A DNA stretch of 64,000 nucleotides from Pecten maximus. Its lineage: Eukaryota. Under the pieces are notes generated by a model. That model had not been told where the DNA came from. It saw only the letters and a program-made list of their open reading frames with translations, and searched no databases. The DNA is taken from the NCBI RefSeq assembly GCF_902652985.1, contig NC_047022.1, positions 16,926,001-16,990,000 of the forward strand. Reading direction: 5' to 3'. Below, one piece after another: positions 19,289 through 43,468 of the stretch (position 1 is the first letter of the stretch; each line of letters starts with the position of its first letter). The translations under genes and the position numbers were made by a program.

Positions 19289-19936
19289 TCAATAATCCGT
19301 ATCCTCGTCGGTGTCCGGATCGTTCGTCGCATACTGTTGGTCAGCGTCGGTCACAAGATCAAGCTTTGCCTTTGTTACTTTAACAACATAGAAAATAAAC
19401 ATCTTTTACATTTTTCTTTTACATGTATGACTCTTACCAAATTAAACACACTAAAACAATTAACACACTAAACCAATTGATATTGCATGTAACTGAATCA
19501 AATTCGCTTGATAGGCATCTCAGAAAAAAGTTCCGTTTATAAATTATAATGCTTTGCAAACGTAGTTATTGAAATAAATCGATTGGAATGCTGTCGTTCA
19601 TATATTTATTTTACAAAAACAGAACTTGTTAGGTTTTCACACATGTATGATCCCTCCAATTGCTTTGAAATGTTATTATTTAAGTTTACATGCCATGCTG
19701 GTGAATTTGTTAATCAACAGGTTTTGAAGCAAGCTTGGTATAGTTTACCTGTTCCTTTAAACAACTCGTTGCCAATCACCCCATTTACAGGATTACCGTC
19801 CCCTTTAAGTCGCCATTGCACTAGACGGGCAGTTGGACTTTTCGTTGATGTAATGATATACTTGCTATCTGCGCTCATTCGACAAGCAACAACCTAAAAA
19901 TGTAATTGACAATCAAAGATTACATGTATTGTTTTT

Positions 19937-19988
<52 letters not shown>

Positions 19989-22900
19989 TAAAATACCGTC
20001 GAGACAAAGTTAAAGCAATAACCCTCGTCACTCTACCACAATGCCGACTACAAAATGATTCCATGAGTAAAATATTGAAAAAAAAAAATACTGTTAAGCA
20101 CTCCATTTTAGCTTGTGTAAAGATACAATACATGCCATACAGTGACAGTTGAAATGATACAAACCGCTAAAGTTTAAGAAGAAATCATTTATGTTGGAGG
20201 CTATGTATTCTTGAAAAAAAAAAAAGGAAAATGGATTTCCTTAATTTAAAGAACAGGGAGGAAACTGGGACTGCAGTGAAATAATATTAATTCTTACAAA
20301 CAAGGAGTAGGGGTAACAAATGGGGTATACCTGAGTGGAATCGAGACTATGTCATTCAATTGTGTGATATCACCGACGAAGTATGTTTACCCCAAAGTTC
20401 AAAAGAAAAAAGAAAACAGAAACGGAATTTGCCTCAGAATGGCCGCATGTAACTTATAATTATCCCCAGAGCCTCAACGGGGACATGAAAGTTGCAAGCA
20501 ATAGGGAGTATATGCCTTTCCTTACCGTATTTTCCATTCGGAAGCTTGCTAGACATCTCAGTGTCGACTTTTCCCAAATTCTTATGGCATTTTCAGATCC
20601 ATACGAAAAGAAATAAGGACCCGATTCTTTTGCAAAAACATCGACGGAACTAGTATGTCCCTCCAACCGACTAATCATTTCACCTAGAAAGTATTAACGG
20701 ATATATAGTACGTAACTATAAACTATATTGTGTTTCCTTAATACTTTATCTGCAAATGCATTGTACACTAATCGATATACAGTGTAATCATAGTAAGTGT
20801 GCTATTTTTTTTTTAAATTTGTTTCTGTACCTAGTGGTTCCAGTGCCATCACTCAATTCCTGTTTTCAGGATGTAATTGAATCCCATATATACTTTACTT
20901 GCTCACTCTACGAAATACCTGGGTCTATTCTCCTACTTTTTCAATGACCTCCATGCTAATTTATATATGTGTATGCGTTTTAAAATAGTTTTAAATATCG
21001 ATTTTAAATTAGAGCCAATATTCCATTCTCATATTGGTAGTCACTGCCATTGTATTACCTGTTTTTCTGTCCCAAACTCTGAGGATGAAATCCTCGTGCG
21101 CAGTAAGTATTCTTTTGCCGTCAATCACGTGTATCTCGTCGACTGATACATCTAAGCCCTTCCTGTTGTCAATTTCATTGTAGCGTGCTTGGTATTCAGC
21201 ATCATCACATTGTGTGACCATTGCTCCTTTGTAGTCCGAAATGTAATGAAGATATCGATGCATAATTAAATTGAAAAAAGTGTATTACAGTCTTAAAATT
21301 AACAATATATTTTGATTTTATCAGTAAGCCCATTTTCATGGAAGTTCGACGTTTTATTAAGTGGTTTTTTTAAGTTAAGAAAAAAGTGTATGGAAATGTC
21401 TAAAGAAAATGCAAAACATCACAGAAGAGAAGAGTTTTAGACTACAAAGTTTGGTTTCCTTTTTAAAGGAATACACAAGGAATACACGATACACAAGTTA
21501 ACATTAAATTTTTCAGATGTCTCTTATCTAACGCTTTTAACAACTATGGAAAAGGGAATACCATGATTGTCACATGTAGCTTATGTGATGTGTATATGTT
21601 TGTGTATTCATAATAAACGACAAATGTATAACATGTATTTGTGTAATAATTTATACAAAGAGACGTAAATTGAATTCGTTGATATCCCTTTCCGTTAAAT
21701 AGTTGCCCCAATACAGACAAATACCATATCATTTGTATTTTTGACAAAGAAGTTTTGATGAAAACATTATTACCAGACGTTTCCAAACATCCACTTACCT
21801 TTTCCAATATCCCAAATGACAAATGACGCTGGTTTGTCCTTGGCTTTTTTATCTATACGTTGTATATTAGAATTGATACCAAAAATAAATAGCTGTCCGT
21901 CGTCGGACAGAGCTGCCTTCTTTGTTGGTATACCTTTGTATGGATGCTCAAGTGAAATAGAAGTGATACACTGCAAGCTTTTAATGTCAAACAAAAGCCA
22001 TGGACCATCCAATATTCGTCCTGCCAAAACAGTCCATCCCTTGTTTACCTTAAAATAAAGATGTCAAGAAGGAGGTATTGGCTAAAACAGGAATAGGTTA
22101 AATTAGCAATGGCTACAAGGGATTAGGTAAAATCTGTATTGACTTAATGGGATAACGATAAATAAGTGTTGATTAAAAAGGAAATGTTAGATTTGTATTG
22201 ACTAATAAGGATAATGTTAAATTAGTATTGACTAACAGGGAATAGGTTAAATCATCACTGAGTTAACGGGGCAAGGTTAGATAAGTATGGACTAAAAGTG
22301 GTAAGATTAAAACTAGCATTGCCAAAAAGGGATTATGTTCCATTAATATAGACTAAAAGCGATTAGGTTAAATTAGTATTGACTAACAAGGATAATGTAA
22401 GATTAGTATTGACTAACAAGGATAATGTTAGATTAGTATTGACTAACAAGGAGAATGTTAGATTAGTATTGACTAACAAGGATAATGTTAGATTAGTATT
22501 GACTAACAAGGAGAATGTTAGATTAGTATTGACTAACAAGGATAATGTTAGATTAGTATTGACTAACAAGGAGAATGTTTGATTAATATTGACTAACAAG
22601 GATAATGCTAGATTAGTATTGACTAACAAGGATAATGTTAGATTAGTATTGACTAACAAGGATAATGTTAGATTAGTATTGACTAACAAGGAGAATGTTA
22701 GATTAGTATTGACTAACAAGGATAATGTTTGATTAATATTGACTAACAAGGAGAATGTTAGATTAGTATTGACTAACAAGGATAATGTTAGATTAGTATT
22801 GACTAACAAGGAGAATGTTTGATTAATATTGACTAACAAGGATAATGCTAGATTAGTATTGACTAACAAGGATAATGTTAGATTAGTATTGACTAACAAG

Positions 22901-25900
22901 GATAATGTTAGATTAGTATTGACTAACAAGGAGAATGTTAGATTAGTATTGACTAACAAGGATAATGTTAGATTTTATTGACTAACAAGGAGAATGTTTG
23001 ATTAATATTGACTAACAAGGATAATGCTAGATTAGTATTGACTAACAGGGATAAGGTTAGACTGGCATTAAAATGGGCAAGGTTAAATAAGTATTCACTA
23101 AAAGGGGTAAGGTTGAATTAATGTTGACTGAAAGTGATAAGGTTAAACTAACATTGACAAAAAGGGATTAGGTTTAATTAGTATTGACGAAAAGGGATTA
23201 GGTTAGATTACTACGGAATAAAAGATGCAGGGTAAGAAATACTTTCCAACGTTAACAAACACCTACTAACTCATATATAAAATACTAAAGAAATGTGCTG
23301 AAGATAACTGTCGTCAATATTGAAAAGACAAAACTTGATTGGTTTGTCTGTTCTATTGGCACGCCAAAGATTACGAAAACGGATAACCATGTTATTCGAT
23401 CCTTTTCAATGTAAAGAGAAAGCCAAGGTCAAAGTAGAAGGCGAATAAGATATATTATTGCCTTTCCTAAGAAATAGAGAATTATATAAACATTTGATAA
23501 GAATAAATAAAGAACATTTCATTATTTCAATTAAATTTTGCAGAATTATTTAAAACTGACAGGGCAGCCATTTGAAATATTCTTAATATATTCTAAAGGT
23601 TTCGGAAGAGATATTTCGCTTTTTTGAAGAAAGAAATGTTAAAAGTTACATAGAACGTCTTCTCAAATCGGTTGTTGTTGTCTTTTTTAACGAAACTAGG
23701 TCTTGGGATGATCGCTTTTGTCTTTCCGGTTCTGGTGTCGTATCTCTTAAACTGTTGTCGTCCTCGTGTATGAGTTAGTATCTCTGTAGAACCAAATCAT
23801 AGAGGCATAATATTTCTGTCAGTCAAAGAAAACTGAAGTATTTAAGTATGCGTAATTGACCGGTCTAAAAGTAAATAACAGGGTATAACGTAATATTCTA
23901 TAGTAAATTAAATATACTATTTGTGAAATTGAGAAAGACCCAAAGTAAAAATATCATTATGTTATACACTCCGATTGAAAAAAAAAATTTTTCTAATAAA
24001 TCATCAAAACATTGAAAGAAATATTTGTAATATCAGGTTGAAACGATTGAAAATAATACCTTCCAAGAAATTCAGTTAAATGTGAATCCTCGTTAATGAA
24101 CAGTGTTGTAAAATAGTCAGTATAATGTTATTACCTGACCCATCATGTTTGACATGGACATCTAAAGTGTAGCCGGAAAGGTCGCCTTCAAAGACTTTGT
24201 CTATAGTCATGCTGTCAATGTTGATTATCTTCATTTTCCGTGTTCTAGTGACGACAACTATACGTTTATCGTCTAGGACCTTAACCACTCCGAAAGGAAC
24301 GTCCTGAAAACATAATCATATCGTATATTTTAACATATGACACATTGTACAAAGAGATGCATATATAGATCCGGTTTTTGTTATCAAACATATCATATTT
24401 TCTAATCTAATGTATGTAGATGGTATGGCTGGTGCTTGGCTGTTACTGCAAGGTGATTTGAAAGAGTCATGTCATAGAAATATCAAAACTTGGATCAATT
24501 ACTATATCGCTTCATCTGACCAAATTTGTCATTATCGACAACTTAAAAGCTCAAGTCCGTCCTTCCTGTAATAATTATCTGCTTACATGACGAAATCATA
24601 AGCTTCTTGAAAATTCACCATATTTGGTAGAAGCAGGGATAGACGATGATCATGTATCCATGCTTCATAATGCTTTTAGGGATAAATTTAAATTCATGAG
24701 CGGATGACAAAAATGTAGAACAATTTTGACAATATACAATTATTGATCCATTATGAAGTGAATACGATGATTCATCGACCTGCTCTTGTAATTTAGAGTT
24801 GACATCGTGGTTGAGCAAAGTGAAAATGTTAAACAAAGGTATGCAATAAAATATCTAAAGAAACAGAACACAATGTTTTACAATAATAGTTTAACGTACA
24901 TTGTAAGAGCAAAGTAGCTTATTAAACAACCAAGTTATTCAAGTATTACTAACCAACGGAATATGACGGACAACTGTTTTTGTCTGGACATCATACACCT
25001 GTAGGCTACAGCAATCATCATCTGTCCGGTTTGTCTGGGCTAGTACCAGTACATAGCGAGCATTGTTGTTTAGCGGAAGAAAGTGTCTAGTAACGGATAA
25101 AAAACATCGTTAGGTTTGAAACAAAATGGTAACAAAATTCAGATTAAGTACGAACTGAAGTATCATTCTGTTACGGTATTATTCCAAAAAGAAAATATTT
25201 TCCCTCCTTGCACAGCTTTGAATTTGCGCAATATTGCTGTGACCTTCTCTTAGCGGAGCGTATATTTCTCTGAAAAAAATGGACAGTTTGGGTTTGATAA
25301 GCATTACTCCAAATCCAACAACCTGATCCGATCTTTTTTTTAAGAAACACTGATCTCAGGCACTGAAAATGCTTGGTACATTGTTGAAATCGTCAGTGTA
25401 GCTAGTTTTCCACGAAAAATTCACAAGATCATTTGAAGGTAAATTGACTTAAAGGCAAGACAACTAATTTGGTTTTCATTGTAGGCAACAAAAATAATGA
25501 TTTACATTGCACTCCGTCAACACGTTCTTCCTTGTTTTCTTTCAAGGATGAAATTAATATTATTTAAACTTTATTTAAATGTTTAACGAAATTAGTCAAT
25601 AGCTATGATGACAGTCGTCACAGGTTGGCAGTTTTAAGTTTTATAGTTTACCTTACTTTGTGTCCCAAAACCGGACTTTGGTTCTTCTTCTCTTTCTCGT
25701 CTTTTTCCAAATCCCATACACAAACCGTGGAGTCGTCATCAGCCACAGTTACCATGGTTTTCCACGACCAACACACTGCGCCACACAAATCACCCGAGTT
25801 GGTCAGGATACACGAACGCTGCTTCTTGGCGAGGTTCCACACAACAACGCCGCTAGTGTCTCCAGGAAAGTAAAGCAAATTCCCGCAATCTGCTATCCTA

Positions 25901-28900
25901 TAATTTCGAGCGTAGTCCGATTGGAACCCTAAAATGATGTAAAATGTAGTCACTCAACGATGGCATTATGAGTAAAATTGCATCGTTTTCGGTTTAATAG
26001 AAATTTTCATAGGCTCAACATTAAATGAGAATACTATATTCTGTACCTTTTATTGATTGAAGCTTCTCTCGCGTCAACAAGTCATAAATGTGGAGGTCAT
26101 TGTCACGAATGTTAGAGAGGATGAATTGTTTTTCATCTGGGGTGATTACTATCGCATCAATAGTGAGATCTGTTTGATGATGTCTTTTGCGATCGGGGTT
26201 GAACACCTCAAACCATTCACTCAAAGTGTGGTCTGAGAACCGAAAGACTGTGATGTAATGCTGGTCAGCGTCAGTTAGGACCACGTAGTTTTCAGATGCT
26301 GAAACAACATTACAAGTGACATTTTCTGTATCTCATTCGTATCATTCGATTTCAATATAACGATTGCAAATAAGAACAAGTAAGAGTAAGGAATAGGTGT
26401 TTTTTATTATATTATTCCATAGAAGGTTATAGTTTTACCTGCGATAGCTGAAGGCATATTTTCACAGAACTGTTTAGAGTAGTCAGAGTTTTCAAATTTC
26501 GCAACGCTTTCACCATTTTCCAAGTTGTAAACATGAACAGTCACATCACAGAAGAGGGCAAGTAAAGCTTTTCCTATTCCTCCAACAGCCGACTGACAGC
26601 CTATGCCTTCATTGATGGAGAAGACAACCTCGCCGGACTCGCGTAAAACAATGTAACTATTCTCATAATCTACAAGGATCATCTGATCATTGCAAACAAA
26701 CCGGACTCGAGATGGATCCTCGTCTATGCCATCATAAGACTTGTGTAATTTCCCTTCAACCAAGTCCCATGTCTTTACAGAGTTTTCATCGTCATCTGAA
26801 CCTGAAGAAGGCATAAATCATAAAACTATAAGTGTTTTTCTTTCAAATCATGACATGAAAGCAATCCTGATTCAATCCTCAACCCATTTAACCTATTTTG
26901 ACAGTATTATTTCTGTATTTGGTTTTTGCTTAGTTTTAAGAAGTCTCCAAAAAGCCGAATTAGTTGCAAATTTACCTGAAATATCATGTTAATATAGGCA
27001 GTGATAAAACTTCTGAATTCAGTTAAGATATGCATAAGTAATTAACTTCTACATAAATTAATAAACCGATAGACAACTACGTTGTTAACTAACTAATACA
27101 TGATTATATAGGATTATAGGTTGATGATTAAATAAGTTAACCGATATTTAAACATTTCAACCAGATTTGTAACCAAACTAATTTTAAGGAATGCATCGTG
27201 TCTGGAGTCTGATTCTCTTTCACTATGTCCGATCGGTATGTTTGCAATACTTATCGCATACTGAACGCCTTGTGAAGACGGCGTGGTCGGAAAAGTGTAT
27301 CTCTCAGAGAGATTTAGATTGCTATTTTAATAAAGAAGAACTGGCATAGTAATTTATCAGCATTTAATGACTGCCTGAAAGTTTTTAGTTTCTACTAAGA
27401 ACAGACCAGTATTCATCCTCGCAGGACATCACACATAATCCTTATTTGTAGGTTACATTGCTGTGATATATAATTTTAGTAGGTTTTCAGGAATTACTCA
27501 ATTACTATTCAACACGGCTGATTGGCTAAGGCAATAGTCTACAGGAGGACGTTCCGAGTCTTTACAGTCATAATACTACATACATTTTATATGAAACAAA
27601 GATTTCGGCTTCCGACTAATGCGTTTTGAAAGTAGTTATATCTACGACAGAGCTTACACGATACAGCTAGTTTGCCGTCATCTCTGATGTCCACTGATTT
27701 GACGGGACCACTGTGCCCAGTCATGCAGTAGACTAGCTGTCCACCAGGCTTCGTAAGGACTTCCTGGTCAGGTGAGAGGTAAGGCACACTGCATTGTTCA
27801 CACTGGCGCAGAAGATCGGCTGTGTGCTAAATAATAAAAAAAAATCCACAGAAGTACAGGTCCGCACGAAAGCAGATGAGAAACTTTATAAAAATACACG
27901 ATGTGATATGATGATGTGATTAGATGTGATAATGTTATATTGGTCATACCTCGTCCCCACATAGTCGGTCCATTAGTTGCGGTGCCAGCTGAAGTGGATC
28001 GTACAGTAATGCGCCCTGGGACATTTCGAGTGCCGCTCCCAAAACATCAAGTTCAAGATCATTTTGGAAGATTTTCCGGGCGATAGCAAAGTCGTCAAGA
28101 ATATGTCTTAAAAGCAAGTGTTGTATTTTAGCGTATTGGTATTAGAGTGAATTATTAGAATAGAGACTTCTTCTATACAAACACACATAACAGGTTATTC
28201 CTAGACCATCTCGTACAAGTTATTAAGATAATTGCAAGCACAATTCCGCTTCGGGTCACAGTGCTGACAGGAGCACACAACCGCCTTATCAAACGTTTGG
28301 CGATGCATGTCTCATTGTAACGGAAAGAGAAACGTGATGATGGTAACCACAGACGACATGTCAAATATCAGATGATTGTTTCTTTGAAAACTCAGAGCAT
28401 ATTTACTAAAAAAAGTCTACAATTCGCCCATAGCTGATAAAATGTAAATGACATATACATGTAATAAAGTATGCCTACCTGACAGATGTAGCTACAACTT
28501 TTGCCTGTAGGAATTCATAATTCATGAGACACTTTGTCTTGAGCTCAGTGGCATCGCCTTGCTTGATCATGTGATAAGGAGCATTATTCAGCCTTCGCAG
28601 GTTGTAAGAATCACCATTGATAAGAGGCTGACTTGCAACATGACGATCTTCCTCGCCACTTTTGTTCTGACCTACGTATGGTTTTTTTCTCTCTGTGAAT
28701 TCAAGTTTATACTTACACAAATGTAGTCATCGATACACCATAGAAACAAATATTGGATAAGTTAATGGCAAATGTAGAACAGCACGTGTTGAAAATGCAA
28801 TTTTATTATTTAAAAAAAGTTATTCAAGAAACTTATTCTTATGAAAATTAAAGAAAGATAATTTTACTTACCTTCGGCCCATTTACCATTGAAAAAATCC

Positions 28901-31900
28901 GCGAGACCTCTGTGAATCTGATTAGCCACTTGTAGAGTGCAGTATTTCTCACTTGCTGCCTCCTTAAACTGACGATGATACCAATTCAACACACTGATGC
29001 CGTCAGACCCTCTCTCAACTATAAAAATGTATTAAAAATATCATTATTCAATGTATCAGATCACTAATATATTGACCTTCCCATTTCGTTTAAATGTCAA
29101 TTAATTCGGTAATTCAATTGGGGTTTATAAGATCCTTCACTTTTATGTACACACGTATACATTTGAGAGATCCATTCAATAATGTATATCTAATTATTAG
29201 TGGATCAACGATTGTAATGCTTTGACTATGGTACAAACGTTTAGTTTGGGAAATATCGGACAATAGATTTCTACTATAAATTTTAGTCAATACAATTTGC
29301 TGTATAAGAACATGGCTGTAGGTTAAACCTGTCTTTCTCTGGATAAAATAGATACACATGTTGGAGGCTTTAGTTCGCCTCATTGCGACAGCACAGCAGA
29401 CTTCCATCAAAAAAACATATGACATATTAGGACGCTGTTCGAAATTAAGCAATATTTACCAATGTATTGTTGTATGTCCGTCTTCAGTCTGACCAGCAGC
29501 AGGGGAGGTAACCGCCTGACAGGAGGTACCCAGAACTGATATACGTCATTTAGTACGTCATCATCACATGACAACACGTCTTCTAGTTCCGACTCTGACA
29601 ATCCGCTTTTAGCTGGAGTAAACAGTGGCCATGTCTACAGACGATATAACTCCAAACAACGCATATCAAGTGTGCAACATTTAAAACATAACATTATCAT
29701 TTGATAGAAACCCTTCCTGTAGTGAATATCCTTATTTCTTTTTGAACTTATTGTTTCTGTTCACTTAACATAAGATGAATAGAATATCTTTCAACGAAAC
29801 TCTTCACACAATAATCAGTAACTTACTTGGTAATCTAGTCTTCTCTTCGAGTGTGTTATTGATATGGCATGAAACTTTGAAAAAAAAAAATCTAAAATAA
29901 CAACAACAACAAAAACAAACAAACAAAAAAGGGAAAAAAGGGAAAAAAAACTCACAAGCTGTTAAGTAACCAATTGTCCTTGACACGAGCATCTGTCCAT
30001 GTTTGCTTTCCATTTTAGAAAATAAATATTCAATGCTGCCTTTGACCGTCTGCTGGAGTATAGTCTCATTGTCGTTCCAGTAAGAGTGCCATTTGGAAGC
30101 ACTTTCGAAAGACAGATTCAGGAATAGTGGCAGAGGACATTGGCGAACGCACTCGTTAAGTTTGGCCATCTGTGGGGGACTTAGTGTTCTTTTACGGGTT
30201 CGCAGCCATTGCTGTATTATAGTCTCCGCTTCAGAGAATGTCAGCTCTGGCACAGGCACAAACTGTTCTTTTTCTTGGAACATAACCTGAAATTTTATAA
30301 GAGAATAGACTAAAAGCCTCCAATATAGGATGTGCCTATAAAATGCAAATCAATCGCAATTTTCCTTCTTTGAATAATTGCTCTGTTAGGTCGAAATACT
30401 GTCATTTAAAACATAAGTGATCTTTTGTCTTTTTAAGATAATCTTCGACTCCTTTTTGATAACGTCTTACAAGACATACATTATACTTAAACTTCGAATG
30501 AAAATAAACATTCATTTTCATAATTTGTGTGGCGGTGCGTTCATTTTGTATACTGTCTACCTTAAGTCTCGGAAAACACTCATTATCCTCAATTGTAGAC
30601 ACGATTACTTTGACGTGTTTGGATAGAGTCCGAGGTAACCAGAATAAACTTCGAGCGTTAAAGGACACATCGATTTGGTCCAAGGCGTCCAAAATGATGA
30701 CAAGAGGTTGGGATGCTGAAGCAAGTTCCAGTGAAAGCGCTGATTCTTTGGATAATTCCTTGAGACTCTTTTAAAATAAAGACATTAATCGGTCTTAGAT
30801 TATGAATAAATAAGAGTTAATGTTCAGAAATCAATCTAACCAATCAAAAAATAAATTACATGGTTTTCAAAGAAAATCACAAAAATGCCCTGCAATCACG
30901 GCCATTTCCTTGTCGTTTCGGTTGAACAGGTTAGCCCAAAGTTGTTATTTTATGAAATTATGATTAACCTAGTGATTTGGTGCTGCTTTCCGACGAGCCT
31001 CGACATAAGTTCTAAAGATCTATAATAACAGCGGCAGGTCCGTCAAGATTAAGGCCTGAAGTGTTACATTTTACATCATTGACGAACCGACCCAAATACT
31101 TTAATTGGCAAACACACACGGCTGCAAAACAATAAAAAATGGAATGCATGAAAGTGCAAACGGATACTGTTAAAATACTGTAAATTACTTTTCGCGTATC
31201 ATTTATTTTCGCGATAATACAAAAGGAGAGTCAATCACCTATTCAAATCATAACATGTATTCGCGAAAATAGCGAAAGATGTAAGTTCTCTAAATAAAGT
31301 ATTCGCGAAATCTAAGTGATTTACAGTATATATTGGAATCAAAACTTACCTCCGGCATATGTGATGTCTGGTTATAGATGGCCTGTATTTGTTTGATGAT
31401 GCTTATAAGGATTCCATTGATATTTGAGCTGTCAGGTGTCGTGCCAATAAACCTTTTTAATTGTATAAGATCAATCTATGATACAATGTAGTTGAATACC
31501 AAAGACATAAATCTGGTTTCTGATTCATAGTTAAAATAGCAATGGTAAATTACTGTAAACCAACAGATTTTCGCGTGCAATTGATTTTCGTATATTTCGC
31601 GCACGATTCAGATTCCTGAAAATCAATCACCGCGATATAGTTTCTACCACAGGTACTGTAGGCATTTTATGACTATAAATCGCGAAAATAAATCGCCGCC
31701 AAAATGTCGTTAGGCATGAATTCGCGAAAAAAAATGGGTTTACAGTAGTTCATGCAACGGAAATTCATATTTGGATTCGATACATTGCTTCCGTATTTTG
31801 TTGGCATACGACATTTTTTTTCCCCTTCTGTTTTACATCCCGTTGAGATTGCCTGTTTTTTTATCATTTGAAGTCGCTTGTGTATCAAATGTACAACTCT

Positions 31901-33888
31901 TTATAGAATTACTCACAACAACCACTTTGCCAAAAACATGGTAAAATTCCCCGAATTGCAATTAACGCTGCAGAGGCGTAGCCAGCCTCGTTTGAATAAT
32001 AGATATAATTTACATTATATTAATGCAACTCGCTCGCGAGGGTCGAAAAGAGAACTGAAAATGCGATATTGCTACCCAGGGGTGCAAATCTCTGTATTAT
32101 AATGTAAAAAACTATACTATTGCCCATTAGAAATGAATCGCATTTGATTCACACAATGCACTTTGCTTTTACAAAATGTATACATCTTTTTATAGTGTTT
32201 CCATAATTCCTGTTCAGTGACACATTAAAAGAACGAATATACTGATTAAAAGACGACAGAAAAATGATATGAATGAACGTGACTATGCAAGCACGTCTGA
32301 CGGGTAACACAGGCGAATACATTGCTTTTGCATTTATCCAAACTAACCGTGTCTTCATAACAATATCAATAAAACGATTAATGATTTAGTTCTTAACAAT
32401 GACGTTCATAATAACGACAGCATCGCAGGAACGACGATTAAAATTGTTTTCAGGCAATGAAAAAGATATACATGTACTAAAGAGTTTTACCTAAGTACGA
32501 TAGCGGGATTTGTGTTTGACATCCAAGACGGAATGAGACGAGCTACCATTGCCATCAGAGACGTTTTGCCACAACCTGAGGCTCCATGAATGATCAAGGG
32601 TTTCGTGCTTGTTGATCGTATGTAGGCTTCTACATTCTGTAAGCAGAACATTATTATTAGTTAGTGTTGTCATTGTGGTTCGTGTAGTTATTGTAGTTAG
32701 TGTTGTCGTTGTGGTTAGTGTAATTGTTGTAGTTATTGTATTTAGTGAGTTATTGTAGTTATTGTAGTTAGTGAAGTTATTATAGATAGTGCAGTAATTG
32801 TAGTTACATATGTAGTGTAGTAATTGTAGTTATTGTAGTTATAGTAGTTAGTGTAGTTATTGCAATTAGTGTAGTAATTGTAGTTAGTGTAGTTATTGTA
32901 GTTATTGTAGTTGATATACAATGTAGATGTTGTAGTTAGTGTGGTTATTGTAGTTAGTGCAGTTACTGTAGTTAATGTCGAAATTGTAGTTATTGTAATT
33001 AGTGTAGTCATTGTAGTTATTGCAGTTGATATACTATGTACATGTAGATAATGTAGATGTTGTAATTGATGTGGTTATTGTAATTAGTGTGGTTATTGTA
33101 ATTAGTGTGGTTATTGTAATTAGTGTGGTTATTGTAATAAGTGTGGTTATTGTACTTAGTGTGGTTATTCTAGTTAGTGTGGTTATTGTAATTAGTGTGG
33201 TTATTGTTATTAGTGTGGTTATTGTAATTAGTATGGTTATTGTAGTTATTTTAGCGTATATACATTGTTGTACATATTATCAATATAATGTCAGGAGACT
33301 GAGTGAGCACATTATCAACTACCATTCATTGTTGACATCCGATGACCTAAGGTAAGTTATAAAATCCTGAATACGATATATATTGTAGAAGAAGAACATC
33401 AGAAGTTGCAATGAAGCATAAAAAACTTCAAATATAGGTATATCCGTTTTGGTGTTTTGCAGTTCTCCTTAAGGATTGACAAGCTTCAAATGTACATGTA
33501 TTTGATATTAAGATTCTTACAAATAGCATGGTAAGTGTAACTGTGACGCTATAAGTCAATGAATATATACACGGGTATACACACGGAGTGCATATTATTG
33601 TTAGAAATAAAATTATTCAGAAAAAAATATTAAATCGATTTTATTATGGGTTAATGCACCTTCCGGATAATGTGTATATATCTAATATATCATTGTAATA
33701 TCAATTACTGTACTGTATATGTTACTATAATGATATCTAAAGGTGATATTCGCTTGTGTATCATTTGTACAGTTTTAATTACATCCCGTTTAAGCATTGG
33801 AGAGATAAAAATGACAAAGAGGACAGAACTAATGTGTTTACATGTATATGTATATCAATATAAAAAAAACGACGACGACGACGACGAC

Positions 33889-33921
<33 letters not shown>

Positions 33922-36900
33922 AAGCATTGGAGGGGTAGTCAGGTTTGGACTCTCCATAATCAACTGCTATTACAGGAAAATTAAAACGGGATAGATATTA
34001 CTTTGCTTACCGCCAGAGTCGTTTCTCGTCCACAAAAATTCCCGCATTTCTGTTGACAGAAGCTTACGTGTTGACAACACTCCAGTATCAGGGGGTTGGT
34101 AATCTCTGTAGCGGACCTCTGTTTGATGCCTTCTTCAATCAGTCTTTCCGTTTGTGAAATGAACTCTTCTGTCATCTTTTTAAGATAGGTTTTGTGATTT
34201 TCATTCGTGGGATCTATACCTGCATATGAAATAAACGTACAAGGAACTTCTAATAAATTGCCGAAATGTACGATTTAAAAAAAAGTAAAATAACGGCCTG
34301 AAAACTTACACCTACGGTTAACTATTTGTAACCAGCCGCAATATACCGCTCTGCTAGAGAGAACTTCTCATTACCTCGACCGGTTAAGTGAGCCAGAAGT
34401 CCTCGTTTCGATCCCTAGCGGAGGTATAATTTATCATGCACTCCTGACACCCTTGTAAGGACTCGGGATTTGTACTAAGCATTACTTTTTTTTTTATTTA
34501 TCTTGCTCTTGGTTGCAACTTTTTCCATATTAATTATTACTGCGCGCGAAATTTCAAACAGATTCTCACCATCGTTTGTCCAGTTGACTGGAAAAGGAAA
34601 CACGTTTTTCTTTGGCAATCTTTGTTTCATCTTGGTCTCTTTCAGGACTTCAAGCAATCTTCAAGACTCCTGCCAATATTCCTGCTCTCCGTCCATGTCT
34701 TAAAAATAATCATTTCCAAAATGCGTTATATTGCTTGCAAATTATGAAACAAAGACTGGTGTCGTTATTGTCCTATTCGTTAACTGTAGTTATTAAAACA
34801 TTTTCCGAACTTTTATTTCATCAATAAATTATAATGGCATAAATATTCTTCTTATATGGATGATTCCATGTACGTCTAATTCAGCTGTTTCATTGCATAA
34901 CTTGACAATTACATTTCATTTCATTTTAATAGAAATGGTCAAGATATAACATAACTAATATTCTCCTACAAAATTGAAGAACCTTATATTACACTGTTTT
35001 ATCCTTGTGTTTATTTCCCAGTTTGCAATGTTGTATGTGCTCAATACGCATTTAAAATACGACGGGCCTTTCAGTCCACTCACAGATTTAGTGAGGTCAC
35101 GTGACTGTTAAATACAACATTAACACCGTTACAGATTTTGCAAAGTGCAACTTTTTGATCACTTTTTTTAACGGGGTATCTGGAATCAATGGAAAGAGTA
35201 TACCAATATTTACTTGAAAAGTTCTTTGGAGTCTGATTAATTATTTTAACGATTCCCTTCAAAAAAGTTTATTTACATTGCCCTAATACGTTATTTTTGA
35301 CTTTATAATGAAACTGTCCTCCTCTTTGTCGTGATAATCATTCAGGTCCACAGCAAAATCTACATTGATTAGTTTATTTCCTTTTCAAAAAGCCTTATTT
35401 GGTCATTTTTTTTAGACAGAATACAAGATTACACTTTTGGAAAAATAGATCGATGTTGGTGTGTATGTCCAGATATTTGAACTCTTAATTATTTTTTGTG
35501 TGTCATAAGGTGGCATAGAACCGAACAAACATCACTACATGAATGCAATGAGTCGTGTTTTTAATGAAATTTATTATTTGCAGATGATCTCCAAAGATAC
35601 ACCATCATGTAAAACGTTTTCAGTTATACGTACAATCTGGTAGATTCAATATTAGTTGAAAACCACGGTCTCCATCGTAACCATGACAGCCGATCCCGGC
35701 TTTGATCAGAAATACGGTGTCAAAGGGAAAGTAGAAGACAATTTTTCGTAAACCTCTATTCATAACTTGTATCATTTGATGTTGTTGAACTATATCTCAT
35801 CAATTCAAACATAAAACATGCGGAACTTGTAAACGTTTAAATAACGTGATGACATTAGAATGTTGAAGTTGCAACAAAGTACAACAATGTTTATTTTACA
35901 TGATTACATTAATGAGCAACAAAACGTGGTGCAAAATTAACTCACATGTGTATTACTTATTATAATTGTATGATTTAATACATACCTATAAATTTCTTGA
36001 GGCGATTTGGATCAGGAGTTTTCAAATTTTCGATATTATTTATCCTCCGCCAAAACCAAAGACAGTGTTTTTCGGGCTCAGTGACGTCAAGTAGGCCGGC
36101 TCGAACCTCTTTTTCTGTAACTGTTCATTTGAGGTCGGTTAAATGGTGTTGCTTTTATCATGAACATCAACACAAAACATGAATTTAAAAAAGATCGTTA
36201 TCCGTGCTTAAAGATACATCAGTATTATGTTCCCGATAATTATGTTTTAACATTTGTATTTCATAAAGCAATTCTACGACTTAAAGAACAGTAAAATCAT
36301 AATATTCATAAGTTGAGACACGCCAACAATCAAGCTGTTGGACATTTTTTTTATGTAATCAATAACTTACCGTAATAAAGGAAATACATACTAGAAACGT
36401 AATATTCTTCAGCTTCATCCTCAGGGAGGCTGATTCGGGCTGCCTTGTCTAATGCGGATTTTATGATATCTATCTCCTCATTCGACTGGGCTTTGGCTGC
36501 ATTATGTAATTCCGTTTCTTTGCTCCTGTAGTCTGGCAGAATACGACTTCTGGGCTGGAGAACAAATTCCGGAGGTAAAGCATTGTCGTCGCGGACATAC
36601 CACCTGTTTGAATGGCGATAAGTTGCCGCATTACTGAACTTTATAAAGGTAATTAAGTATCATTTTAGAAACTACAAATATACGAATGCAAACTGATCTG
36701 AAAAACAAATTGAACTGGGGTCAAGTAGGAATGTTATGAATCATAAGCCTTGTTATTTTATTTTATTTTATCTTATTTTAGTAATTTGTATGTATTCTAA
36801 AATATTTAAGGCCATACCAACCTGGTATGTCAAAACACTACGCAAATTAAGTTTTCTCCACTGAACCGGCTAATGGCGAAAATAAACACTTCCTCTTAAA

Positions 36901-39499
36901 AAGCAATGTCCACCATTCATTTAAATCAGTTTTCAAAAAGTCACTTCCATTGTCTCTGTCAGGATCATCAGTACAATTATAAACATATGTGAATTATTGT
37001 ATCATCACGTTAATGCGCATGTTATACAGTAACAAAAACTTACTTGTTTAGGAGAGTTTTGTGATGGTCGTTCTCCACCACCCCAAAAAGTGTATTAAAA
37101 TGGTCCACACTGATTGTTCGAGGAGGCGGTCGGTATCCATACTTGTTAGCTAGAAGTGACTGTAAGGATGAATGGTTAGAAATAAAGGCAGTGGCATCGC
37201 ATACAGATATCAATAAAATCACTATGACGGATTGTATAAAAGAGCCTTTACAACATGTAACCACATACTTATGATAATAACACCCACGGCTATGAATCCG
37301 GCGAATGGGATTCTTAGAATGGAACATGTGCTAGAAAATGTCACATGCAGTGTATTGACAAATCTCGGGGAGTAAATATTGTATTCATGTTTCAGTTACT
37401 ATCGTTTTGTCATTTTCTATCCAAAATTATTGAAAAATATTTTTGAATAAACACATCTTCCAGAAAAAAAATAGCATGTCACGAATCATTGCCCACAATG
37501 AATTTAATTCAGTATAATGTACTATTAGTGACAAGACTATACATTGTCGTTTATTACAGACTGCATAATTTTATAGGGTATTTCTTTTTTGTTTATTTTC
37601 ATTGTGCGATCAAATTACAGTTTGAGTCGCTTGGGCGGAAAAGGAATAATTTGGACGGAGATGATTGTTTTAATTATCAAAAAGTCACAAAATCCAAATG
37701 AACGAGACGCCATGATATTTGAATTTTTGAACCCTATTCGAAACACCTATCTGTATATGGTTACATGGTAGATACATTCAAACACCCCAGAATACGAAAC
37801 ATATCCAAAAGAGGCGAAGATTAAAACTGTTAATCTGTAGATATACTTTTATGTTAAAAGCATCCAAACACGTAAAAAAGAACACCAGATCATATATATG
37901 TCATGCAAAAGATGAAAAATCTACGTTTTATGAGAAAACATATTTTATTTAAGTTAGAACGCCTATACAAGAAAATACCTAGATGTAAACGAAATCATCT
38001 CAATCTCGGTTAAAATCTTTCCATCAATACCTGCGAAAGAGAATAGACTAGATATTCCAGAGGAGTTGCCTTGTCAGCGTTACCCGTATTACTATTTTGG
38101 TTGAATCAACATATTGTCAATCCGTCACCATAAGAACCGAAAGATGACAACAAGACCAATATGCATAAAAGCTTGCATCGACACGTCAGAATTCATATTA
38201 CATATTGATAGATGATTATACATTTCTTTTCAAAATGTGGTGTCAGACACTTACGATGAAGTTAGGACCTGTTGAGAGTTTCTGACACAGCCTTAGTTCA
38301 TTCATACACAGATCTTCAGTAGTGTGGTCATCAGACGCCTCGTCTCTGACACCCCATCTCATGTCTACCACCTGGAAATCATAGCCCTTCATCCGACAGA
38401 ACGAACGCAGCTCTGGGTAGGCCCTCTTCATCCACTTATTTCTCTCGTGCATGGTGTCTTTAATTATGTAGAATATTTTCAAATTAAATAATGTCAGGGA
38501 ACTTTCAATCTGACTTTTTATCAATGTGTATCAATGACTACATCTGAAGTAATTTCCAGATAATCAAACTGACAACTGTACAAAAGGTTAAGCCGAGTTT
38601 CATATGGCCCTGACACCATGTCTGGTGTGGGACATGGTGTAAGGACAAGAGGAAACTCGGGCTTTTGATTCATATGTTGGGTGTATCTAAAGTTATCTAG
38701 ATAACTGGGACGAAATTAAAGTTCTGACCCTTTTTACGTTGGCGAAAGCAGTAATACATTTAATCTAATACTATTCATATGCAATAGATATTCGGTGTAC
38801 AATATTTACAGTGAAACCTGACTTTACCGACCATTAACTTTAACGACATTCCGTATTATTCGACCATATCCATCGGAACAGCGACATGTTGCGTTGTTAT
38901 TGTTGACACTGGCTGTGCCGACAGACTATCATATCCGACACATTGACTCAGTCTCAAGGTGAAAGTCAGGTTTCATTGAGCTAGATTTTAAATGTAAACA
39001 AATAGACGTTCCTATGTGATATTCAAAAGCTGTATGTGTGTTCTGCTGAAGGCACATAAAAGGTGAATTATTAACTAGGTAAATATAGAAACTCAAATCT
39101 ATTGAATATGTTGTGTGTTTTTTTTTTACATGTAACCTTCAATGTAGATTACATCGTTGTGATACGTTAATTTAGCGGGTTTTCAGAAATTACTACACTA
39201 CCAACCAATATGACCGATTGGCTCAGGCAATAGTCCCTGATATCAAGTGGGGATGTATATATGTGAACTTTGTAAAAATATCCAACGTCACTGTGCCATG
39301 AACTGAGTACCTACCAGTGAATGTACTGCTGGTAAATATTCGTACTATTCTGCATTTTTGTGGAACACCAATGCTCACGTTCCCAGTGAGGAATGCATTC
39401 ACAACATTCCGATCGAGCTTCTCTTCGGTTCTCTCTCGTTCTATTCGCAAAATAGCCTGACCAATGCTCTTCTGGAAACCCTCGGACTCTTTGGTTTTC
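19289..39499 (-). CDS. NACHT and WD40 repeat protein (NWD1/NWD2-like; DUF4062 - NACHT - WD40), 27 mapped exons, one in-frame TGA
   Basis: Exons (minus): 39315-39499, 38255-38457, 37044-37159, 36392-36603, 35986-36120, 34570-34698, 34011-34219, 32491-32636, 31350-31452, 30561-30767, 29956-30286, 29460-29612, 28872-29018, 28479-28692, 27950-28106, 27658-27826, 26439-26801, 26047-26298, 25652-25928, 24954-25086, 24135-24303, 23650-23783, 21799-22048, 21059-21226, 20526-20683, 19749-19893, 19289-19377 (stop TGA). Phases chain correctly, 4954 nt. Motifs: RIFTSSTFTD..ERN and VDMRWGV (DUF4062), Walker A GASGCGKT, Walker B LVIILDALDQ, PLPLFL, GLSESELEDVLS, WYHRQF, WD40 repeats (GHSGPV..VKTWD, VCVWD, LRVWD, GHTSSV..IRIWE). 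In-frame TGA at 34661-34663. Confidence 0.9.
19939..19986. repeat. (AG)n microsatellite
   Basis: Read directly. Confidence 0.95.
22370..23060. repeat. 30-bp minisatellite, about 23 copies, with degenerate flanks 22070-23215
   Basis: Unit GATTAGTATTGACTAACAAGGA(T/G)AATGTTA; intronic in the NWD gene. Confidence 0.95.
31176..31328. mobile_element. Tc1/mariner (pogo-like) MITE
   Basis: TACTGTAAAT...ATTTACAGTA termini with TA flanks and internal TTTTCGCG / CGCGAAA subterminal repeats. Confidence 0.65.
31551..31747. mobile_element. Tc1/mariner (pogo-like) MITE
   Basis: TACTGTAAACC...GGTTTACAGTA termini with TTTTCGCG / CGCGAAAA subterminal repeats. Confidence 0.7.
32660..33250. repeat. 9/18-bp low-complexity tandem repeat
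   Basis: (GTAGTTATT/GTAGTTAGT)n grading into (GTGTGGTTATTGTAATTA)n. Confidence 0.9.
33871..33920. repeat. (GAC)n(GAT)n compound microsatellite
   Basis: Read directly. Confidence 0.95.
38589..38664. mobile_element. Short MITE of the same family as 11131-11302
   Basis: AAGCCGAGTTTCATATGGCCCTGACACCATGTC ... GACATGGTGTAAGGACAAGAGGAAACTCGGGCTT. Confidence 0.55.
38807..38978. mobile_element. Degenerate pogo/Tigger-like MITE
   Basis: TACAGTGAAACCTGACTTT ... AAAGTCAGGTTTCATTG inverted termini. Confidence 0.55.
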
Positions 39500-41993
39500 C
39501 TAACAAGTATGAAATACATTTACATATGTGTACATCATACAGGCTTGATATGATTAACAATATGACTGAAAACAGCAGACAGCTTTCTTAATCTGCCAGT
39601 GCTGATGACCTTTTTGTTCTCGTCACTGTCACAACTTTTAAGCTCAATAAAATACAGAATCATGAAAAGATAGCAAGGCACCCCACATGATAATATTTTA
39701 GTGACGACGGGCGAACTCTCAGAGGACGGGATTGTTATCGATTATCTATACACGTAATAGTAGTGATTCATAATGAATTGAATCAAGACAATATCAACCA
39801 GGATAGATGTGTGTCATAAAGTATAGATATAGCTTTTCTACATCGATTTTCAAGATGAAGGCAGCGTGTGTATAGAATTATAGTTGTTAACACTAAGCAA
39901 CGGAAAGTAATTAAACTTCATAGATAAAAAAAAAAACAAATTTCGTAAAGTGTCAAATTTCATTTTTTGCGTTGCCACCAAATAAGTGTGATAGCAAGTC
40001 GTCAAAGCGAACAAAACGAAAAATAGATAAATTGACACTGAACGTATTAGCCAAGAATCATTCTTCTTATAAATGTAGATTCTCAAATTAAAAAAAAAAA
40101 ATGAAGAAATTTACGAAAATGGAACTCATGTTAACAATTGTAACTATGCTTTTTTACTTAAGGTACGTGTCCACACTTCTGACATAAAATTTCCGTTCAG
40201 GTTTATTTTACCTGTAAACCCATGGCTTCTTACGAAGCGACTACGGTAAACACACCTGGCCGTATATGCCCAGGGTTACTGAGACAACACTCTCAGTGAA
40301 TCATATTGTAACACCGTCATGCTTGACCGCAGACACCTTTCCGACTTCCAAACAGGTTTTGCTGGTGAGGTACTGCATTAGGTATTTAACGAAACTGAAA
40401 CACGTTATGTAAGATTCCATTGAAAATGTATACTGTACCCGCAGTGGACCCCAGGTTACCTAGCACTTTTACAATCCAAGGACATACAGTACCATCTGTG
40501 TATTTCACCTATACATTGCCCAATATTAGCAAATCCAATGGCAAACATTATTTCCTTTCAAATAAATCCAGAGCCATTTCTGGAACTAGCATCATTATAA
40601 AAGTATAACAAGTTGTTTATTCATTTGTCTGAAAGGTACTGCTATCAATATTTTACCTGGGTATTGATTATAAATACCAAAAAATCATAGACACATGTAC
40701 CTACCCCCTCTGAAGTGGTCTGTTGTTACATAGGGTAGGTGAGTTTGCAACACTGACAGTTGAAATCTAAAATGTAATTTTAGAATTCAAGCATAGGAGT
40801 GCCTTTGTAAATGTCATATGGTTATCCATGGAAAAGTATAATTTCGTACCTGTTACCTGTTTTGAGATGGATTTTTTTTTTTAAAGTTTCTACTTATTCT
40901 CGCTGTAAACGAACCAACAATTTGGTTTATTAGGACGAGTTGGTAGGCCTTTGTGAATACAAAGTGTTCCATTTTCAAAAGAAACACAGGCAAAACCATA
41001 GCTAATCTCGCAAACACCCTGGTGTCTGTACAAACTATTTCAATAGCAAATAACATTTGCTGGAAGTCTGGTCATGAACCTTAACAGCTTTAGAGACGAC
41101 GGGAAATAGCGAGCGGAGTTAAAAAGCAAGTCTACCATTGCAAATATGCCTTGGTAAAATAGTGTGTACACTTTGTAATGTATATCATATATATAATTAA
41201 ACATACGAGTCGCATCTCATACCTTTAAAGACAACGTGAATTGTCTCAGGACAACGCTGGCATTGTACTTAAAGTTGTATGATGAGTAATTTAAAGCGTC
41301 TGTTGCAATTTGTCAGGTATTCTAAATAACAATGTCAAAAGCCCCAGCGTATTCACGGGAGCTTTAAATGAAGATTGGGTAAATAACAATCCGTTGTTAC
41401 ACGTAACATAAACTTATTCATTTAAACGAGCCATAAGTAAACGAAACATGGAAGCTCTAACTAGAGGGACTATTGTGTTTCGGTCCCAAAGTGGGACAAT
41501 GCTTTCGTGATGACATCTTGTTATCGTGTTGTTACTAAACCCCAGCTCCATATTTAAATATCCTTCCAAAATCAATTCTAAAACAATGCCATTCAAAAGA
41601 CTAATTGAGTATTATAACCTAAACTGACAGCCCGATAATGAGTATGTTCAACTGGAACTAGCTAATGACTGTCTTTAAGGAGACATACGTTGCACCTATT
41701 ACATACATGTAATCTGATGACTTGTCACTGGCTAAGGCTCGATAGTAATGATAAATGAGATACATGATCGTTATTTCCAAGTTAAATTGTAAATGCCAGT
41801 TGCAGTGAAGATAAAGCCATGCAAATACAAATTCATATGTTTTTTTTCTCAAATCTCGCTGTACAGGTTGGATCATACAAGAACAACACATTAACCTGTT
41901 TCTGTTATAGTCAGAATCCTTCCAAAATGGTCTCAGGTAGTTCAATACCATTCAGTAACTTGTAGACTTCCCAAATGACAAAACTGATCATAC

Positions 41994-42016
41994 CTTAAGA
42001 GGTTGGGGGATACCAT
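41994..42016 (-). CDS. Candidate first coding exon of the NWD gene (MVSPNLLR)
   Basis: ATG...AG|GTATGA donor in phase 2, the phase the 39499 acceptor requires. TATA-like GATATATAGA about 80 nt upstream. No homology support. Confidence 0.35.
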
Positions 42017-43468
42017 GATTAATCATTTTAACTCGGCAGTGCCACCAATGTAAGTAGTAGGGAAAAGTGCCGGTGCTGGGCCACCTCTTCCCTCTATATA
42101 TCCCTTACCGCTTCCCTGGCGCCCCCAGATGATCACATAGGGAGTTCTCGACTACAAATGTTTTACGACAACTTGAAATAATATTGATATAAAAAAATCG
42201 CTGTTATAATTTTGACCTGATGTTGATCTTATGTAAGGCGAAAACTCGTGGAATGGTTTACAACACAATTTCGTCCCTCAGTAAGTGGTGGTGTATATTA
42301 ATATAAGCTATCAATAATGGGTACAATCTCATAAGAAACTACACAAATATATGTTATGGACACATACCCTTTTTGTTTGCTTCCTCCGGATCCCATCCTG
42401 GCTTTATGGAGCTCACACGAACTTCTTCCTTTGTATTAAGTCTATCATGACATCTCCTAGCAATCGGATTGAAGATTGGTCACTTTACATTACTTGTTAC
42501 ATACTCGAGTCCTATGTTAGGTTTGCCAGCCTCTCCGAGCCATTCTGTTGTTTTCTATCTTCCAATTCCATAAAATGATTTGTGTCTTCATGCAATTCAA
42601 TTTTAAAATATCGAAAATACAATGAGTCATTTGCCGATTCGCGGAACCGATGTACCTCTTACCTGGAATTTTCATACAATATATTGATATATGTCTTAAT
42701 TATAGTGTTATATAGCGACCTTTTAAATGCAGAACATATCGACCCGACTGTGTGCATGCTACACAGGATTTTAACTGTTGTGAACGTCTATTCAGCAGGA
42801 TTGTTAAGCAAATGGTATATACATATACCAGTCTGCTGGACCAGGAAGTAAAAACGATTGTCATGTGTTATTGGAGTATAATACAGTCTTTAGAAATTGG
42901 GAGGTCGAGTTGCGCAATGGTAACACATTCGCCTTGCGGCTGTTTGCTAACGAGGTTCGATTCCCTGTGGGTTTTCCTCACGTACTCAGGCTTCGTCTAT
43001 GTTACAGTAAGTTTCATCCTTCCGGGCCAACATGAGTGATTAATTAATAGAAGTTGATAAAAATAGAAAATGTTTTATATCACGATATTTGGTTGGTGTA
43101 TTACTTGGATGACCACTATTCAAGGTCACAGGGGTAGAATTTCTTAGCATCCAGAAATCGTTTCTTCTTGTTGACTAAAAAGCCAAGAATTGAGAAATTT
43201 CGCTGGTACATGTAGGTTCAATGGTTAATACATGACGAACTATGAAGTATGTATCATGTACTATCACCTCAAACGACGTCTTTTAAAAAGTTCTATGATC
43301 AATATATCTGACTGGAAGGTTCATTGAATGATGCTTCAGAAAGTTGCAAATAGAACTGGCCTTGACCCACTTTCAAGATAACAGAGGTCAAATATGTTAA
43401 AACGTCCTTGACGACCTCTGATTTACAGCACGGCATTGAAACAAGACGTTTGATTGGTACGTTCTTTG

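What the first reader, a model, noticed from the sequence alone, without database searches (positions are those of the whole stretch)
34661..34663. Single in-frame TGA separating the DUF4062 domain from the NACHT-WD40 body of an otherwise intact gene
Seen: exon 34570-34698 reads D-MDGEQEYWQES-TGA-RLLEVLKETKMK at about codon 304. Its splice sites are canonical, and the other 26 exons show no stop or frameshift. The simplest inference is a recent CGA-to-TGA CpG transition giving a null allele, or a consensus error. Alternatives are readthrough or recoding, or a weak in-frame AAG acceptor just after the stop. If the transcript escaped NMD, it would give a free N-terminal domain of about 303 aa uncoupled from its NACHT switch, which matters for a STAND/NLR-like receptor. 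The context TGA-A is not the leaky UGA-C type, and I saw no convincing SECIS.
Basis: partly seen in the sequence, partly recalled or inferred. Interest (0 to 1): 0.7.

Follow-up and report, generated by a model that had tools for sequence, protein, structure and literature searches.

The report
Heterozygous stop mutation in scallop gene
The stop codon is real, but runs from one scallop sample also carry a version that reads arginine, as related scallops do, so this is likely an ordinary broken copy of an NWD1/2-type gene and not a recoding signal.

Summary
The TGA is real: minus strand 34663-34661, codon 306 of a 28-exon, 1660-codon NWD1/2-like gene (TIR-like DUF4062, NACHT, WD40) of Pecten maximus, and the only internal stop. 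It is not fixed. DNA contigs read CGA (Arg) in 3 of 5 runs and TGA in 2 of 5; one sample shows both. The TGA travels with a second change two bases away (TCT to TTT, S305F), so the window's TCT-TGA, seen in 0 of 5 runs, is likely a blend of two haplotypes. Both orthologues and all five scallop paralogue proteins have Arg; 0 of 24 homologues have Cys or Trp. The body after the stop shows no decay (75.5% versus 75.3% identity). The stop does not free a domain: in a model of the orthologue it falls inside the TIR-like fold, before its last strand and helix. Best reading: a heterozygous CpG nonsense allele, likely null. Readthrough and selenocysteine are unsupported. Allele frequency and expression remain untested. 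Ordinary.

The parts
34661..34663 (-). TGA at codon 306; the other allele is CGA (Arg). Polymorphic base at 34663.
   Evidence: G on + in X1, X4, X5; window base kept in X2, X3
34664..34666 (-). Codon 305: TCT (Ser) in the window and on the CGA haplotype, TTT (Phe) on the TGA haplotype; Ser is the state in 7 of 7 scallop homologues.
   Evidence: 34665 G>A in X2 and X3 only; alignment
34570..34698 (-). Coding exon 7 of 28 (129 nt, phase 1-1, skippable in frame); encodes the fourth core helix and fifth strand of the TIR-like fold in the orthologue model. Also holds N335K (34574), phase unknown.
35986..36120 (-). Coding exon 6 (135 nt, phase 1-1); left out with exon 7 by the public NCBI model.
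42368..42396 (-). Likely first coding exon, ATG at 42396, MGSGGSKQK.
   Evidence: homologues begin MGSG; no RNA support seen
34100..39400 (-). Exons encoding the DUF4062/TIR-like domain (about codons 60-370); approximate bounds.
   Evidence: Pfam DUF4062 on orthologues at 23.8 and 23.2 bits, just under the 24.7 cut-off; model and TIR matches
29956..32636 (-). NACHT exons; Walker A GASGCGKT at codon 424, Walker B-like VIILDALD at 512.
   Evidence: the motif labels are recalled
19289..42396 (-). Whole coding span of the NWD1/2-like gene: 28 exons, 4983 nt, 1660 codons.

Best explanation
The TGA is one of two alleles at codon 306 of a scallop NWD1/2-like gene, the other being CGA (Arg), and it is likely a recent CpG nonsense mutation carried in heterozygous state that would silence that copy. 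Shown: both alleles in one sample, Arg in orthologues, no second lesion. Inferred: CGA is ancestral and changed by C-to-T transition at a CpG; the window is an unphased consensus that took T at 34663 from one haplotype and C at 34665 from the other; the stop transcript (91 nt before the next junction, 21 junctions and 4,065 coding nt downstream) would go to nonsense-mediated decay; any 305-residue product would lack the last strand and helix of the TIR-like fold and likely not fold. The intact allele and at least four paralogues likely mask the loss.
For:: at 34663, X1 (S1), X4 (S2) and X5 (S3) read CGA; X2 and X3 (both S1) read TGA; no gap inside the exon. Nearby bubble branches have about equal depth that sums to roughly the flanking depth (X1 6.6+6.25 vs 11-14.5; X4 25.4+22.4 vs 36-38); one match in G000. 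Arg in 7 of 7 scallop homologues and 11 of 24 overall; own-genome paralogue has CGT here; 4 of 4 paralogue loci fetched have an open homologous exon; identity to the Argopecten orthologue 222/295 before and 1019/1350 after the stop; no excess of changes in the window after the stop (67-76 vs 95-108 in Argopecten; 96-100 vs 111-121 in Ylistrum). At least 15 sites in 34450-35030 differ between S1 contigs, in line with the 1.71% heterozygosity reported for the species (PMC7191990).
Against: Only contigs were laid, not raw reads, so allele counts and phase beyond the 3-base bubble are unknown. X4 shows the same two bubble branches as S1 and may be the same genotype; S1 may be the window's own source; so there are only about two independent genotypes, and TGA was seen in one. 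Genome-wide depth is unknown, so a collapsed near-identical duplicate is not formally excluded. Two derived changes side by side on the TGA haplotype (S305F, R306*) are unexplained: one multi-base event, or a haplotype already under relaxed selection. NMD was not tested; in molluscs it is only suggested (PMC12277549).
Confidence: 0.88

Rival explanations
1. The TGA lies on a recent duplicate (pseudogene copy) that the assembly collapsed onto the functional gene.
For: Two derived coding changes adjacent on the TGA branch; local difference between branches about 2.6-2.8%, above the species' reported 1.71%; the family has several paralogues.
Against: One match in G000; never more than two branches at the exon-side bubbles listed, with depths that sum to about the flank; the stretch is mostly intron, where higher diversity is expected.
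Confidence: 0.05
2. The TGA allele is rescued by splicing: exon 7 (or exons 6 and 7) is skipped in frame, or an in-frame acceptor after the stop is used.
For: Exons 6 and 7 are both phase 1-1; in-frame AG sites at 34647, 34638 and 34587 have pyrimidine counts (9, 9, 13 of 18) within the range of true acceptors (8-14); NCBI model XP_033746932.1 joins a donor 21 nt into intron 5 to exon 8.
Against: Both orthologue models keep these exons at 59-75% identity; skipping removes core strands or helices of the TIR-like fold; the NCBI model also runs into an intron at its C-terminus, so it looks like a prediction routed around the stop (inference).
Confidence: 0.04
3. Pure assembly error: no animal carries TGA.
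For: The window's exact TCT-TGA is seen in 0 of 5 runs, and the window alternates between the two S1 branches at nearby sites.
Against: TGA is the retained branch in 2 of 3 runs of sample S1, in contigs of depth 10.8 and 20.5.
Confidence: 0.01
4. Programmed readthrough or selenocysteine at this UGA.
For: Single in-frame TGA in an otherwise intact, conserved frame.
Against: The stop is not conserved and not fixed; 0 of 24 homologues have Cys or Trp there; the 3' context is AGA, not C-led; no Rfam match at E up to 1 in 14000-43000.
Confidence: 0.01
5. The stop releases an active N-terminal TIR-like effector uncoupled from its NACHT switch.
For: DUF4062 is a TIR-like NADase family and the isolated TEP1 domain is active (bioRxiv 10.64898/2026.05.01.722283).
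Against: R306 is model residue 252, in helix 245-266; strand 272-278 and helix 289-321 follow, and TIR matches span model residues about 5-313. The same paper saw no NADase activity for full-length human NWD1 or NWD2.
Confidence: 0.01

Closest known systems
Heterozygous nonsense (stop-gained) variant at a CpG, CGA to TGA
   Same: Single C-to-T transition at an Arg CGA codon, sense allele present in the same sample, no further decay, premature stop well upstream of many junctions.
   Different: A second change two bases away (S305F) rides with it, and the window shows a blend of the two haplotypes. No report of this allele was found.
NWD1/NWD2-like STAND proteins (DUF4062-NACHT-WD40; human NWD1, NWD2, TEP1, NPHP3; insect NWD2)
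   Same: TIR-like N-terminal domain, NACHT, NWD1-type winged helix (PF25469), WD40 propellers. Orthologues XP_069135782.1 (Argopecten) and XP_060071031.1 (Ylistrum).
   Different: A scallop paralogue: it forms a 3-member clade sister to a 5-member scallop clade (quick tree). One-to-one orthology to human NWD1 or NWD2 was not tested; enzymatic activity unknown.
Selenoproteins and programmed stop-codon readthrough
   Same: In-frame UGA inside a long conserved frame.
   Different: Not conserved, not fixed, Arg not Cys in homologues, no Rfam element found.

Membership tests
Segregating nonsense allele | Sense allele present at the same site in the species | tested here: met
   CGA in 3 of 5 DNA runs, TGA in 2 of 5; both in sample S1
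Segregating nonsense allele | Orthologues encode an ordinary residue one mutation away | tested here: met
   Arg in 2 of 2 orthologues and 5 of 5 scallop paralogue proteins; CGT in the own paralogue
Segregating nonsense allele | Loss of the allele's transcript or protein (NMD) | not testable with these tools
   Only contigs available; geometry fits NMD
Segregating nonsense allele | Allelic, not a collapsed duplicate | tested here: inconclusive
   One match in G000, two branches of about equal depth; no genome-wide depth
Fixed (unitary) pseudogene | Stop fixed in the species | tested here: not met
   CGA in X1, X4, X5
Fixed (unitary) pseudogene | Further lesions or faster change | tested here: not met
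   No other stop or frameshift, 27 of 27 introns GT-AG; no excess change after the stop. Protein-level test only, on a blended consensus; dN/dS not run
Selenoprotein | Cys or Sec at the homologous position | tested here: not met
   0 of 24 homologues have Cys
Selenoprotein | SECIS element in the 3' UTR | tested here: inconclusive
   No Rfam match at E up to 1 over 14000-43000; no dedicated SECIS tool
Programmed readthrough | Stop conserved across orthologues | tested here: not met
   Arg in both orthologue proteins; homologous exon open in 4 of 4 own paralogue loci fetched
Programmed readthrough | Leaky 3' context (UGA-C, CUAG; recalled) | tested here: not met
   TGA AGA TTG
Programmed readthrough | Stimulatory 3' RNA structure | not tested
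   Not folded, since the stop is neither conserved nor fixed
NWD1/2-like DUF4062-NACHT-WD40 STAND | N-terminal DUF4062/TIR-like domain | tested here: met
   On the orthologues: DUF4062 E 5e-5 and 8e-5, just below the curated cut-off; model pLDDT 85.8, best matches TIR domains (4c6t Z 10.4, rmsd 3.6, 146 aligned) and nucleoside deoxyribosyltransferases
NWD1/2-like DUF4062-NACHT-WD40 STAND | NACHT NTPase, NWD1-type winged helix, WD40 repeats | tested here: met
   PF05729 and PF25469 above cut-off on P0002, P0004, P0009; PF00400 above cut-off on P0004 and P0009, below on the truncated P0002
NWD1/2-like DUF4062-NACHT-WD40 STAND | NADase activity of the TIR-like domain | not testable with these tools
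   A Glu (E125) is shared by the 12 proteins aligned; its match to TEP1 E1008 was not tested

The most novel reading that the evidence does not exclude
The stop allele is an old, maintained polymorphism that removes the TIR-like effector of a STAND receptor while a downstream start (as in the Argopecten orthologue's predicted isoform X2, which joins exon 8 directly, or Met317 after the stop) still makes an effector-less NACHT-WD40 protein that dampens signalling: a natural on/off variant of a candidate immune receptor in a wild bivalve.
Probability: 0.04. Interest if true: 0.55.

Novelty: new member of a known kind. Interest (0 to 1): 0.12.

Why it matters
As read here it matters little: one more loss-of-function allele in a highly heterozygous broadcast spawner. 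It has practical value for annotation: the gene should be modelled with 28 exons and Arg306, and the public 1255-aa model XP_033746932.1, which lacks exons 6-7 and both ends, is likely wrong. It also offers a natural null allele of a gene whose domain family was only recently described as TIR-like NADases, which could be typed in hatchery families. It would matter more only if the allele proved common or made an effector-less receptor.

Tried and rejected
Expression: no RNA holder listed for 33900-36800, and RNA? runs X6 and X7 laid 0 contigs on 34450-35030; this is no evidence either way. A search for shorter relatives gave 5 proteins at 35-39% identity, no scallop fragment or transcript-derived copy. 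Rfam over 14000-43000: 0 matches. PDB sequence search with the 22-row alignment: the 60 rows shown of 696 were WD40 proteins and Apaf-1, none for the N-terminal domain. Foldseek on the model: no match at E up to 0.001; TEP1's DUF4062 structure was not among the 50 rows. The careful tree did not finish; the quick tree of 16 rows is quoted. Upstream of the stop the window has more changes than Ylistrum (23-29 vs 15-16; 1 of 4 outgroups gave chi-square 4.45) but not than Argopecten; not taken as relaxation. An apparent lost acceptor before exon 25 was rejected: the AAAG at 21226 gives the same length as Ylistrum and the paralogue. dN/dS was not run because no orthologue DNA was held. Paper searches for this allele or for mollusc NWD1 work gave nothing relevant in the listings. 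Earlier scan findings: 0 near, 0 by words, 1 unrelated. Rows left out of the residue count: P0002 (skips the exon), P0003 and P0008 (isoforms of P0009), P0029-P0033 (fetched later, not aligned).

Full report
Observation. The gene is on the minus strand. Bases 34663-34661 read TGA inside an exon at 34698-34570 that translates D-MDGEQEYWQES*RLLEVLKETKMKQRLPKKNVFPFPVNWTND. The exon is 129 nt, phase 1-1, with AG and GT ends. Aligning homologues to the window and choosing splice sites gave 28 coding exons from an ATG at 42396 to a stop at 19289; the 4,983-nt frame has stops only at codon 306 and at the end. The first exon is inferred from the MGSG start of homologues. The 181 bases around the stop match one place in G000.

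Identity. One exon matches XP_033746932.1 of Pecten maximus at 100%. The closest full-length relatives are XP_069135782.1 (Argopecten irradians, P0009) and XP_060071031.1 (Ylistrum balloti, P0004); in a quick tree of 16 rows these three form a clade (support 100) sister to five scallop paralogue proteins. Pfam finds NACHT, the NWD1-type winged helix and WD40, and DUF4062 just under its cut-off, on the orthologues. The genome holds at least four more close paralogues (72-78% on a conserved exon; 12 matches, 6).

The decisive test. Five DNA runs hold the stretch. At 34663, contigs of X1 (sample S1), X4 (S2) and X5 (S3) read G on the plus strand, which is CGA, Arg. Contigs of X2 and X3 (both S1) keep the window's base, TGA, and differ at 34665, which turns TCT into TTT. 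So sample S1 has two branches in one 3-base bubble: TCT-CGA (Ser-Arg) and TTT-TGA (Phe-stop). The window's TCT-TGA is in 0 of 5 runs. The window also alternates between the two S1 branches at 34510, 34525, 34555 and 34574, so it is likely an unphased blend. No gap falls inside the exon. Limits: these are contigs, which drop one branch of a bubble and are unphased between bubbles. X4 shows the same 168- and 189-nt branches as S1 and may be the same genotype; S1 may be the window's source. X5 has private differences and one 1,350-nt contig with CGA, which shows CGA in a second genotype but not the absence of TGA there.

Which allele is old. In an alignment of 24 homologues the column is Arg in 11, including 7 of 7 scallop proteins (ESRRLL), Gln in 4, Ser in 3, one each of Asp, Glu, Val, Ala, Ile, Phe, and never Cys or Trp. 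The nearest own-genome paralogue has TCC CGT AGA here, and the homologous exon is open in 4 of 4 paralogue loci fetched. Both TGA and TTT are therefore derived (inference). CGA to TGA is a CpG transition; the CDS has 23 other CGA codons.

No decay. Identity to Argopecten is 222 of 295 (75.3%) before the stop and 1019 of 1350 (75.5%) after; to Ylistrum 73.5% and 70.3%. With four outgroups the window has fewer lineage-specific changes after the stop than either orthologue. Walker A and B motifs are intact. This fits a gene that is functional on the other allele. It is a protein-level test on a blended consensus and says little about the TGA haplotype itself.

What the stop would do. It lies 91 nt before the next junction, with 21 junctions and 4,065 coding nt downstream, the geometry that triggers NMD in chordates and is suggested for a snail (PMC12277549, passages seen). 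An AlphaFold2 model of the orthologue's residues 55-400 (12-row alignment, pLDDT 85.8, pTM 0.78) has five core strands at 7-14, 44-48, 84-88, 214-222 and 272-278. Its best structural matches are TIR domains and nucleoside deoxyribosyltransferases over model residues about 5-313 (4c6t Z 10.4, rmsd 3.6, 146 aligned). R306 is model residue 252, inside helix 245-266. A 305-residue product would lack most of that helix, the fifth strand and helix 289-321, so it is not a free domain. DUF4062 was recently described as a TIR-like NADase family; isolated TEP1 886-1113 is active, while full-length human NWD1, NWD2 and NPHP3 showed no activity (bioRxiv 10.64898/2026.05.01.722283, passages and section 11 seen; a second preprint, 10.64898/2026.06.25.731849, passages seen, does not mention NWD proteins).

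Rivals. Recoding and Sec fail on conservation, fixation, residue and context; Rfam finds nothing in 14000-43000. Splice rescue is possible on paper: exons 6 and 7 are skippable in frame and in-frame acceptors follow the stop, and the NCBI model leaves both exons out by reading 21 nt into intron 5. That model also starts late and ends in an intron, so it is likely a prediction routed around the stop; whether it has transcript support I could not see. A collapsed duplicate is not excluded without genome-wide depth, though only two branches of about equal depth are seen beside the exon.

Context and novelty. At least 15 sites in 581 bases differ between S1 contigs (16 with one doubtful row at 34479). 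A heterozygosity of 1.71% is reported for this species (PMC7191990, passages seen). In such a genome heterozygous stop alleles are expected (inference; 4.6% of single-base changes in this CDS make a stop). I found no paper on this allele or on mollusc NWD1-like genes in five searches (listings only); supplements were not read and variant tables could hold it. Verdict: real, explained, ordinary. Interest 0.12.

Noticed in passing
window 36370-36392 (-) and P0002: NCBI model XP_033746932.1 (1255 aa) starts at an internal Met, uses a GTAAGT donor 21 nt into intron 5 to skip exons 6-7, and ends by running into the intron after 23650; likely a mis-model caused by the stop.
   Followed up: partly
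P0003, P0008 (Argopecten isoforms X3, X2): Two predicted isoforms of the orthologue start at the Met of the stop-bearing exon (X3) or join exon 8 from a new first exon (X2), giving NACHT-WD40 without a whole TIR-like domain. Transcript support not seen.
   Followed up: no
P0010, P0011 (Mizuhopecten): Both Mizuhopecten hits fall in the paralogue clade; no member of this gene's clade from that species came up. Loss or missing annotation not resolved.
   Followed up: partly
window 34112 and 34574: Further coding differences: A373S in X5 and N335K between S1 branches; no synonymous difference among the listed rows in exons 7-8 (the table was cut).
   Followed up: partly
window 34288-34443 and 35840-35936: Short high-copy repeats in introns 7 and 6 (summed contig depth in the thousands to tens of thousands).
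   Followed up: no
window 46258-48605 (+): Head-to-head neighbour gene with an LLAVDFDETL motif, resembling a HAD-type phosphatase (recalled); no Pfam hit at E 0.01 on two exons.
   Followed up: partly
window 5714-12500 (-): Short-chain dehydrogenase gene downstream (adh_short on one exon).
   Followed up: partly
window 14060-15549 (-): Broken non-LTR retrotransposon reverse transcriptase in several frames (RVT_1).
   Followed up: partly
window 22366-23167 and 32700-33280: Tandem or simple repeats inside introns of the gene, seen as repetitive open frames.
   Followed up: no
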